From the IMG/VR virus record IMGVR_UViG_2740892369_000045: 15,280 nt of DNA. One strand, written 5' to 3'. How positions within the stretch are numbered: the stretch's first letter is position 1; each line of letters starts with the position of its first letter. The notes beneath the pieces are model-generated. The model was given only the letters and a program-made list of their open reading frames with translations. It was not told the origin of the DNA and made no database searches. Source of the DNA: a virus (Duplodnaviria; Heunggongvirae; Uroviricota; Caudoviricetes). This document shows positions 1,119-1,285 of this stretch, piece by piece. A program made the position numbers and the translations under genes.

Positions 1119-1195
1119 GCTCTCAGGTTCCTTTGTATTTATCTTATTGATATTAATAACAAAAACACCGCAAAGAATAAAAAGAACAAAATACC

Positions 1196-1225
1196 TTGAT
1201 TTGGTTCTTTTGTTTGTTCTATTAT
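1196..1225 (+). promoter_or_regulatory. Candidate early promoter (Pe-like): -35 TTGATT (1196-1201), 18-bp spacer, -10 TATTAT (1220-1225)
   Basis: Sequence match to the sigma70 consensus about 60 bp upstream of the ner start codon; by-eye prediction only. Confidence 0.4.
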
Positions 1226-1237
1226 TTACCCGTACAG

Positions 1238-1260
1238 ATATCCGCACGAATATCCGCGCG
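1238..1260 (+). promoter_or_regulatory. Two 11-bp direct repeats ATATCCGCACG (1238-1248) and ATATCCGCGCG (1250-1260), candidate operator (Ner or repressor binding)
   Basis: Near-perfect tandem repeat with 12-bp periodicity, immediately downstream of the candidate Pe -10 and upstream of ner. An inverted repeat GAACAAA (1184-1190) / TTTGTTC (1213-1219) also lies in this region. Confidence 0.35.
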
Positions 1261-1285
1261 GGTAACTTTTTAGAATAGAGGAAGT

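What the first reader, a model, noticed from the sequence alone, without database searches (positions are those of the whole stretch)
1119..1285. Repressor/ner switch region with a promoter and a tandem 11-bp operator-like repeat
The AT-rich divergent region holds a good sigma70-like promoter aimed at ner (TTGATT-18-TATTAT, 1196-1225), followed by the tandem repeats ATATCCGCACG/ATATCCGCGCG (1238-1260) and an inverted repeat GAACAAA/TTTGTTC (1184-1219). In Mu the corresponding region holds the operators, the Pe/Pc promoters and the transposition enhancer. The repeat sequences here differ from Mu's, suggesting a distinct operator specificity.
Basis: partly seen in the sequence, partly recalled or inferred. 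Interest (0 to 1): 0.4.

Follow-up and report, generated by a model that had tools for sequence, protein, structure and literature searches.

The report
Mu-like prophage lysis–lysogeny control region
This is the on/off control region of a Mu-like prophage of pathogenic E. coli: an early promoter flanked by a repressor site that differs between phage variants, followed by a conserved repeat that is most likely the binding site of the small Ner protein, not of the repressor. This is an ordinary design with new sequences.

Summary
The window is an Sp18-type Mu-like prophage, 100% identical to E. coli 97-3250. Its order is repressor (534-1115, minus strand), ner (1286-1534), MuA, MuB.

The promoter TTGATT-18-TATTAT (1196-1225) is a modest match. 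However, its -10 ends exactly 61 nt before the ner ATG in all 17 representative relatives.

The "tandem 11-mers" are part of four hexamers in 12-bp phase at 1225-1266: TTTACC, GATATC, AATATC and GGTAAC, with CG-rich spacers. In most relatives the middle pair is a palindrome, GATAAC-N6-GTTATC. The array is identical in the window and in Sp18, whose Ner proteins are identical but whose repressors share only 47%. Its A/T variants track Ner residue 12. It sits where phage Mu has CTAAGT-N6-ACTTAG, inside the annotated Ner-binding region. It is therefore most likely the Ner operator.

The repressor operator is the dyad flanking the -35: AAAAGAACAAAAT (1180-1192) and ATTTGGTTCTTTT (1199-1211). Its sequence changes with the repressor's recognition helix across relatives, and it recurs inside the repressor gene at 808-853.

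Unlike in Mu, the repressor is unrelated to the transposase N-terminal domain.

No binding or transcript start was tested. I rate this a new variant of a known kind, of modest interest.

The parts
534..1115 (-). Repressor gene (193 aa from the ATG at 1115; a second in-frame ATG lies at 1109). The N-terminal helix-turn-helix reads ...SRSEAARAWGINVQTLQNYYKRR...
   Evidence: ORF. phrog_3037 'transcriptional repressor' at 4.6e-59. Only weak Pfam HTH_23. 33-54% identical to the repressors of relatives, including the annotated 'C repressor' of phage VW-6B. No similarity to Mu c.
808..853 (.). Distal operator-like cluster inside the repressor gene: ...TTGTTCTTTTTGTTTGTTCAATTGGTTCTTTT. It resembles the right half of the primary operator.
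   Evidence: Direct repeats D1 (820-843 vs 1200-1223, 83%) and D6 (837-852 vs 1196-1211, 88%). AAAAGAAC lies on the minus strand at 823-830 and 845-852. At the same distance from ner, 15 of 19 relatives carry their own type of half-site with at most 1 mismatch, against 0 of 19 in a control stretch.
1150..1177 (-). Tentative leftward promoter for the repressor gene: TTCTTT (1177-1172), 16 nt, TAATAT (1155-1150).
   Evidence: Weak score in my own position-weight scan (3.9 bits). A -10-like hexamer ends 133-136 nt before the ner ATG in 8 of 17 relatives. Inferred, low confidence.
1172..1220 (.). Primary repressor operator: half-sites of the AAAAGAAC/GTTCTTTT type. The best dyad is AAAAGAACAAAAT (1180-1192) and ATTTGGTTCTTTT (1199-1211). 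Outer copies are AAAGAAT (1172-1178) and TTTGTTCT (1213-1220). It covers the -35 and the spacer of the early promoter.
   Evidence: 12 of 13 complementary; reached by 0.35% of shuffles. Across 43 relatives a dyad sits at this place, and its sequence follows the repressor's recognition helix. 75.9% of cells are complementary, against 46-60% when partners are slid by 1-3 columns. AAAAGAAC occurs 8 times in the window against 0.75 expected, 7 of them in 823-1557.
1196..1225 (+). Early promoter (Pe-like): -35 TTGATT (1196-1201), 18-nt spacer, -10 TATTAT (1220-1225). The predicted start is near 1232.
   Evidence: The -10 ends at -61 from the ner ATG in 17 of 17 representatives (usually a 17-nt spacer; 18 here). 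There are no gaps from the -10 to the ATG in 43 aligned sequences. The transcript start is not mapped.
1225..1266 (.). Probable Ner operator: four hexamers in 12-bp phase. U0 is TTTACC (1225-1230), U1 GATATC (1237-1242), U2 AATATC (1249-1254) and U3 GGTAAC (1261-1266). U1 and U2 form the core dyad.
   Evidence: The same geometry and position as CTAAGT-N6-ACTTAG just after the Mu early promoter, in the annotated Ner-binding region. Binding is not tested.
1277..1284 (+). Ribosome-binding site of ner (AGAGGAAG).
   Evidence: Read directly from the sequence. The block TTTTTAGRATAGRKGAA is conserved in relatives.
1286..1534 (+). ner gene (82 aa).
   Evidence: Pfam HTH_35 at 69.5 bits against a cut-off of 25. 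Matches the solved structures of Mu Ner (1NEQ, 9.4e-09) and EnrR (7F9H, 1.6e-08). 100% identical to Sp18 ECs_4944.

Best explanation
The stretch 1172-1266 is the lysis/lysogeny switch of an Sp18-type Mu-like prophage. It has three adjacent layers.

1. A sigma-70 early promoter (-35 at 1196-1201, -10 at 1220-1225) drives ner, the transposase gene A, and B.

2. The prophage repressor, a helix-turn-helix protein unrelated to Mu c, binds AAAAGAAC/GTTCTTTT half-sites arranged as a dyad across the -35 and the spacer (1172-1220). This shuts RNA polymerase out of the early promoter. It probably cooperates with a second site of the same type inside its own gene (808-853), perhaps by looping. These sites are immunity-specific.

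3. Once the early promoter fires, Ner binds the phased hexamers GATATC-N6-AATATC(-N6-GGTAAC) at 1225-1266. These cover roughly -7 to +35 of the early transcript. Binding would throttle early transcription as negative feedback, as Ner does in Mu.

Shown: the sequence anatomy, its conservation, and its covariation with each protein. Inferred: the binding itself, the transcript start, looping, and the direction of regulation.
For: Gene context and families.

Promoter: the -10 ends at -61 in 17 of 17 relatives, and the alignment has no gaps from the -10 to the ATG.

Repressor operator:
- A dyad lies at the same place in the relatives, and its arms change together with the recognition helix. Helix ..TLNSYF/Y goes with ACCAAAAATACC/GGTATTTTTGGT. 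Helix ..TLQNYY goes with AAAAGAAC/GTTCTTTT. Helix ..EGTLKNYY goes with ACCAAAGAACCC/GGAATCTTTGGT.
- Dyad complementarity is 75.9%, against 46-60% when partners are slid, and 0 of 500 shuffles reach the covariation score.
- A type-specific half-site recurs in the repressor gene in 15 of 19 loci, against 0 of 19 in a control stretch.

Ner operator:
- The window and Sp18 share an identical array and identical Ner proteins but have 47%-identical repressors.
- The U1:U2 dyad is 81.9% complementary, against 24-45% when slid. At the symmetric positions, 14 sequences carry a double change from A:T to T:A, against 24 with A:T.
- Hexamers GATATC/RATATC occur only with proline at Ner residue 12. This holds in two Ner clades that are only 52-54% identical to each other. 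GATAAC/GTTATC goes with histidine in all but one of the remaining Ners, although these are 62-73% identical to the window's Ner. The exception, L021 (leucine at residue 12, 59% identical), has GATAAC/GATGTC.
- Mu has CTAAGT-N6-ACTTAG at +8 to +25 of its early transcript, in the annotated Ner-binding region. D108 has an 11-N8-11 dyad at the same place.
- RNAalifold finds no conserved leader structure, which favours a DNA-level site.
Against: - No experiment exists. The library searches found no paper that maps operators or transcript starts in Sp18-type phages.
- ner and the array are physically linked, so their joint conservation could be linkage rather than recognition.
- The residue-12/hexamer correlation rests on one or two evolutionary events.
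- The EnrR residues that read bases (Arg47, Arg55) are Asp39 and Thr47 here, so the solved complex cannot be transferred directly.
- The transposase is linked to the array in the same way as Ner, so a transposase-binding role is not excluded.
- The window's promoter has an 18-nt spacer and only 9 of 12 consensus matches.
- The window's own dyad centre is shifted about 3.5 bp relative to the Sp18-type dyad.
Confidence: 0.68

Rival explanations
1. The GATATCCG repeats are operators of the prophage repressor.
For: They lie in the repressor-ner intergenic region next to the promoter. In Mu the repressor has three operators spread over this region (my recollection of the Mu literature).
Against: The array is identical in the window and in Sp18, whose repressors are 47% identical with different recognition helices and different -35 dyads. 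The array motif does not recur at the distal, type-specific site in the repressor gene. Its variants follow Ner residue 12, not the repressor type.
Confidence: 0.06
2. The hexamer array is the transposition enhancer, or part of it. It would be bound by the N-terminal (I-alpha-like) domain of the transposase rather than by Ner.
For: The transposase keeps a Mu-like N-terminal domain (alignment with Mu and D108 MuA). That domain is 99% identical in the window and Sp18 although their operators differ. Any enhancer must therefore be a conserved sequence, and the array is one, about 965-1005 bp from the left end (262).
Against: The phase between the -10 and the array is strictly fixed, with no indel in 43 sequences. 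That is expected for an operator and is not required for an enhancer. Mu and D108 place their Ner dyads exactly here. Mu's operator region (900-1020) contains the 8-mer TTCTTTTC and other CTTTT-containing words. That these are the enhancer or repressor-binding sites is my recollection. They resemble the AAAAGAAC/GTTCTTTT elements here, not GATATC.
Confidence: 0.1
3. The repeats act as RNA: a hairpin or attenuator in the 5' leader of the early transcript.
For: The leader of the window folds to -16 kcal/mol (z = -2.7) and that of phage Tongde to -21.7 kcal/mol (z = -3.1). In most relatives GTTATCCG-CA-CGGATAAC is followed by TTTTT, which looks like a terminator.
Against: RNAalifold finds 0 conserved pairs in 24 leaders. 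The window and Tongde fold into different structures. The terminator scan reports nothing here. Sequence identity, not just pairing, is conserved, and the hexamer motif repeats four times in phase. One of those copies (U0) lies upstream of the predicted start.
Confidence: 0.04
4. The units are host-factor sites, for example DnaA boxes.
For: In most relatives the unit TTATCCGCA matches the DnaA box TTATCCACA at 8 of 9 positions. This is my own comparison, made on the sequences.
Against: The window's units match only 6-7 of 9. ATATCCGCA and ATATCCGCG lose the first T, and so does the L006 clade. A host-factor site should not covary with a phage protein residue.
Confidence: 0.02

Closest known systems
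Phage Mu early regulatory region (Pe, Ner-binding site, c operators O1-O3)
   Same: The gene order is repressor (leftward), ner, A, B. A sigma-70 early promoter lies upstream of ner. A hexamer-N6-hexamer dyad lies just downstream of the promoter: Mu has CTAAGT-TTTTAC-ACTTAG at 1035-1052 after the promoter annotated at 991-1028. Here it is GATATC-CGCACG-AATATC at 1237-1254 after the -10 at 1220-1225.
   Different: The hexamer sequence is unrelated. Ner matches Mu Ner only at E = 9.4e-09 over 66 residues. The repressor shows no similarity to Mu c or to the MuA N-terminal domain, so Mu's shared operator/enhancer logic probably does not apply. The operator is a simple dyad over the -35 plus a distal site inside the repressor gene.
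Phage D108 Ner operator (heteroimmune relative of Mu)
   Same: There is a dyad-symmetric element between the early promoter and ner. D108 also shows that immunity and Ner specificities can be swapped between otherwise similar transposable phages.
   Different: D108 has 11-bp arms separated by 8 bp: CCGTGAGCTAC-TTTATAGC-GTAGCTCACGG. This phage has 6-bp units at a 12-bp period, in three to four copies.
EnrR, a Ner-family protein solved on DNA (PDB 7F9H; PMC9023278)
   Same: The fold family is the same (E = 1.6e-08). EnrR is a monomer that pairs on DNA and reads a short 6-bp palindrome, CTATAG, so a 6-bp recognition unit is plausible for a Ner protein.
   Different: EnrR packs two monomers on a single hexamer and acts genome-wide on AT-rich DNA. 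Here the covariation links two hexamers 12 bp apart. The base-reading residues Arg47 and Arg55 of EnrR are Asp39 and Thr47 here.
Sp18, the Mu-like prophage of E. coli O157:H7 Sakai
   Same: Ner is identical, the transposase N-terminal half is 99% identical, and the promoter -10 and hexamer array are identical.
   Different: The immunity module differs. The repressor is 47% identical and 176 rather than 193 aa, and the operator is ACCAAAAATACC/GGTATTTTTGGT. The window is therefore a heteroimmune sibling, and the mosaic joint lies just left of the -10.

Membership tests
Mu-type transposable-phage early switch (c / Pe / ner) | Leftward repressor gene and rightward ner, followed by the transposase A and B genes near the left prophage end | tested here: met
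   ORFs. Pfam HTH_35, Mu-transpos_C, HTH_Tnp_Mu_1 and Phage-MuB_C. The left end is at 262, from the insertion boundaries.
Mu-type transposable-phage early switch (c / Pe / ner) | Early sigma-70 promoter immediately upstream of ner | tested here: met
   Sequence match. The position is conserved in 17 of 17 relatives. The transcript start was not mapped.
Mu-type transposable-phage early switch (c / Pe / ner) | Dyad-symmetric Ner site between the early promoter and the ner ribosome-binding site | tested here: inconclusive
   A dyad of the same geometry and position as in Mu is present and conserved. Binding by Ner cannot be tested here.
Mu-type transposable-phage early switch (c / Pe / ner) | Repressor DNA-binding domain homologous to the transposase N-terminal domain, so that the operators double as the transposition enhancer | tested here: not met
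   BLASTP E = 0.53. Profile-profile probability 0.1%. Against Mu c, E = 0.17. The transposase N-terminus is 99% identical between two phages with different operators.
Ner / HTH_35 family (Mu Ner, SfsB/Nlp, EnrR) | Significant match to the family profile and to solved members | tested here: met
   PF13693 at 69.5 bits against a cut-off of 25. 1NEQ at 9.4e-09 and 7F9H at 1.6e-08. phrog_769 at 3.1e-26. The match to the SfsB equivalog model is far below its cut-off (36 against 150 bits), so the protein is not SfsB itself.
Ner / HTH_35 family (Mu Ner, SfsB/Nlp, EnrR) | Same base-contacting residues as EnrR (Arg47, Arg55), which would imply the same DNA target | tested here: not met
   The aligned residues are Asp39 and Thr47. 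A different target sequence is therefore expected.
Phage repressor family phrog_3037 | Full-length match to the family profile | tested here: met
   4.6e-59 over residues 1-191. The function of the family rests on annotation only.
Intrinsic terminator / leader attenuator | Conserved G+C-rich hairpin followed by a U run in the leader | tested here: not met
   No terminator-like site at 1226-1285. No consensus structure in 24 leaders.

The most novel reading that the evidence does not exclude
In this phage group, Mu's combined operator/enhancer has been split into separate parts. The immunity-specific dyads serve a repressor unrelated to the transposase. A separate, type-independent set of AAAAGAAC/GTTCTTTT elements would be the enhancer read by the transposase's Mu-like N-terminal domain. 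The clearest of these is the inverted repeat at 1074-1102 in the first codons of the repressor gene, kept at nucleotide level in about 28 relatives. In the window's immunity type, the repressor half-site has the same sequence as these elements. The repressor could then mask the enhancer as in Mu, but through convergence rather than homology.
Probability: 0.12. Interest if true: 0.55.

Novelty: new variant of a known kind. Interest (0 to 1): 0.3.

Why it matters
Sp18-type Mu-like prophages occur in 233 of 5426 complete E. coli genomes, many of them O157 and other Shiga-toxin strains. They sit at many different chromosomal sites, including inside Stx phages, so they are active genome rearrangers.

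I found no paper in the library that describes their control region. This analysis gives concrete, testable sites for both regulators. It shows that at least two heteroimmune variants share one Ner/transposase module. It also provides natural covariation tables that could be used to read out the recognition rules of both proteins: repressor helix against half-site, and Ner residue 12 against hexamer.

The design itself is what a Mu specialist would expect: a repressor site over the -35 and a Ner site just downstream.

Tried and rejected
1. RNA reading. RNAalifold on 24 leaders gave no consensus structure, and single-sequence folds differ between relatives.

2. Scan of the viral collection for the 20-mer GATAWCCGNNCRRWTATCCG. 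It returned 42 loci. Of these, 21 lie directly upstream of a Ner gene. The other 21 are in unrelated, coding-like contexts without further units. The 20-mer alone is therefore not diagnostic, and this test added little.

3. Hairpin or palindrome test for the inverted repeat in the first codons of the repressor gene. The columns are mostly invariant and covariation is weak, with 38-48 of 500 shuffles reaching it. The result is inconclusive.

4. Leftward promoter for the repressor. No strong or universally placed candidate was found. Only a weak one at 1150-1177 emerged, and an IHF-like match overlaps it.

5. DnaA-box reading of the units. Rejected for the window (6-7 of 9 matches).

6. Primary literature on the Mu and D108 Ner footprints. 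These papers were not in the library (plus searches). I relied on the GenBank annotation of Mu, on the Mu and D108 sequences themselves, and on my recollection of the published consensus ANPyTAPuCTAAGT. That consensus fits both Mu half-sites.

7. Solved-structure search for the repressor. Nothing significant was found.

Full report
**What the window is.**
The first 4.6 kb encode the following, in order:
- a truncated host gene (1-261, minus strand);
- a 193-aa helix-turn-helix protein on the minus strand (534-1115);
- an 82-aa Ner protein (1286-1534; Pfam HTH_35, 2.5e-19);
- a Mu-type transposase (1536-3626);
- MuB (3698-4630).

The stretch 250-1600 is 100% identical to E. coli 97-3250. Close copies occur in 233 of 5426 complete E. 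coli genomes, at many different chromosomal sites. They also occur inside two Stx-converting phage records, where the element is annotated as an inserted Mu-like phage. The points where matches begin at different insertion sites, and the annotated boundary in LC727895, place the prophage left end at 262 (TGTAACC...). The minus-strand protein belongs to phrog_3037, 'transcriptional repressor' (4.6e-59). It is homologous to the annotated C repressor of Pseudomonas phage VW-6B.

**Checking the observation.**
All coordinates are right.
- TTGATT-18-TATTAT is the only plus-strand promoter-like site between the genes. The pattern alone is no more frequent than chance.
- The two 11-mers match at 10 of 11 positions and are separated by one base, so the period is 12. 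Only 0.9% of shuffles of the region reach such a tandem.
Only 0.35% of shuffles reach that.

**Relatives.**
I collected the repressor-ner intergenic region from several sources:
- Sakai Sp18, three other E. coli prophages, Yersinia phage Tongde and Pseudomonas phage VW-6B;
- 19 genomes of other Enterobacterales;
- 34 viral contigs.

This gave 43 distinct sequences, which I aligned (A3). From the -10 to the ner ATG there is not a single gap. To the left of the -10 the sequences diverge strongly.

**The promoter.**
In a position-weight scan of 17 representatives, the best or near-best plus-strand candidate always has its -10 ending 61 nt before the ner ATG. The -35 hexamers range from TTGACA to TTTACA. 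The window has an 18-nt spacer where relatives have 17. This positional conservation is the real support for the promoter. The transcript start (predicted near 1232) is not mapped.

**The repeat block.**
Stacked in register, every relative shows four hexamers at a 12-bp period, starting immediately after the -10:
- U0: TTTAYC
- U1: GATAWC
- U2: GWTATC
- U3: GRTAAC

The spacers follow the pattern CGYRCR. In most relatives U1 and U2 form a palindrome (GATAACCGC|GCGGTTATC; a perfect 20-mer in Tongde). U2 and U3 form a second palindrome.

In the window the units are TTTACC, GATATC, AATATC and GGTAAC.

Counting the U1:U2 dyad on the alignment gives 81.9% complementary cells, against 24-45% when partners are slid by 1-3 columns. 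At the symmetric positions (columns 87 and 96), 24 sequences have A:T and 14 have T:A. This is a double change that preserves the dyad.

**Which protein binds the repeat block.**
- The window and Sp18 have identical Ner proteins and identical arrays. Their repressors are only 47% identical, and the DNA around the -35 differs. The mosaic joint lies just left of the -10.
- The T:A variant (GATATC/RATATC) occurs only where Ner has proline at residue 12. This holds in two Ner clades that are just 52-54% identical to each other. GATAAC/GTTATC goes with histidine in all but one of the remaining Ners, even though these are 62-73% identical to the window's Ner. The exception, L021 (leucine at residue 12, 59% identical), has GATAAC/GATGTC.
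- In the alignment with EnrR, residue 12 corresponds to His20, next to Arg21, which contacts the DNA backbone.
- In Mu itself the sequence following the annotated early promoter (991-1028, 'part of Ner binding region') is CTAAGT-TTTTAC-ACTTAG at 1035-1052. These are two inverted hexamers separated by 6 bp, at +8 to +25. Here GATATC-CGCACG-AATATC lies at about +6 to +23.
- D108 has an 11-N8-11 dyad at the same place.
- The crystal structure of EnrR, a Ner-family protein, shows monomers that pair on DNA and read a 6-bp palindrome (PMC9023278). A hexamer is therefore a reasonable recognition unit. The base-reading arginines are not conserved here, so this is a lead only.
- RNAalifold finds no conserved structure in 24 leaders.

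I conclude that the block is most likely the Ner operator and works by blocking the early promoter from about -7 to +35. This is an inference, because ner, the transposase gene and the array are inherited together.

**The repressor operator.**
Around the -35, almost every relative has a dyad, and its sequence differs between groups. Sorting by the repressor's recognition helix gives a clean pattern:

| Recognition helix | Operator arms |
|---|---|
| ...GININTLNSYF/Y... | ACCAAAAATACC / GGTATTTTTGGT |
| ...TLQNYYKR... | AAAAGAAC / GTTCTTTT |
| ...GINEGTLKNYY... | ACCAAAGAACCC / GGAATCTTTGGT |

On the alignment the dyad is 75.9% complementary, against 46-60% when slid, and no shuffle of 500 reaches the covariation score.

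In the window, AAAAGAAC occurs 8 times against 0.75 expected, and 7 of those copies lie in 823-1557.

A second, type-specific site lies inside the repressor gene, at -480 to -415 from the ner ATG (808-853 in the window). There, 15 of 19 loci carry their own type of 10-mer half-site with at most one mismatch. None does in a control stretch 80 bp away. Window-type and Sp18-type half-sites never cross-match at that level. This is the behaviour expected of an immunity repressor with a primary operator over the promoter and an auxiliary distal operator. Looping between them is my inference.

**Differences from Mu.**
- The transposase keeps a Mu-like N-terminal domain.
- That domain is 99% identical in the window and Sp18.
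- It has no detectable relation to the repressor: BLASTP E = 0.53 and profile-profile probability 0.1%.
- The repressor is also unrelated to Mu c.

In Mu the operators double as the transposition enhancer, because the repressor and the transposase share a DNA-binding domain (my recollection of the Mu literature). That logic probably does not hold here, and any enhancer must be a conserved sequence. The hexamer array is one candidate (a rival reading, about 10%). Another is the type-independent AAAAGAAC/GTTCTTTT elements in the first codons of the repressor gene (see the items noticed in passing).

**Verdict.**
The inverted repeat it mentioned in passing is part of the true, immunity-specific repressor operator.

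The design is that of the Mu/D108 switch, with new sequences, a non-Mu repressor and a distal intragenic operator. I rate it a new variant of a known kind, of modest interest. Nothing here was tested by binding or transcript mapping, and the library holds no such study for Sp18-type phages.

Noticed in passing
window 1074-1102: There is an inverted repeat, TGGTTCTTTTCC ... GAGAAAAGAAC, inside codons 5-14 of the repressor gene. In 28 distinct relatives of all immunity types, the GTTCTTT and AAAGAAC columns are invariant or nearly so, while neighbouring third codon positions vary freely. The repeat is kept even in Sp18, where the left arm lies in the 5' untranslated region. Covariation is weak. 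It could be a hairpin in the repressor mRNA, an auxiliary operator or a transposase enhancer element.
   Followed up: partly
window 808-853: This cluster inside the repressor gene resembles the right half of the primary operator. The equivalent place in relatives carries each phage's own half-site type. It lies in the variable linker of the repressor, where the window has an extra KKEPIEQTK segment.
   Followed up: yes
window 262-480: The prophage left end is at 262 (TGTAACC...). It is followed by repeated words: ATTTGATACC (278-287 and 373-382), TTTTGATAC (425-433), and GCGCTTAAA / ACGCTTAAAA / GGCTTAAAAC (360-480). These are probably the transposase end-binding sites. They differ from the Mu consensus quoted in the D108 record.
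   Followed up: no
window 1-261: A host gene is truncated by the insertion. It is annotated as an NAD-dependent epimerase/dehydratase or short-chain dehydrogenase in the identical genomes. The same prophage lies in many other genes in other strains, so it has transposed recently.
   Followed up: no
window 1144-1156, minus strand: TATCAATAAGATA is one mismatch from the IHF consensus WATCAANNNNTTR. The L006-type relatives have a perfect match at the equivalent place (sequences). It overlaps the weak candidate -10 of the repressor promoter. Mu has an IHF site in its operator region.
   Followed up: partly
window 1550-1557: A further AAAAGAAC copy lies at codons 5-7 of the transposase gene. It is also present in L034 at the same offset.
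   Followed up: no
window 1202-1219: The window's early promoter has an 18-nt spacer. L034, of the same immunity type, and all other relatives have 17. The extra base lies in the operator's right half.
   Followed up: no
L004 (Sakai Sp18) 1281-1340: The Sp18-type repressor is shorter at the N-terminus. The DNA that encodes residues 1-12 in relatives is still recognisable upstream of its start codon, so the start has moved downstream.
   Followed up: partly
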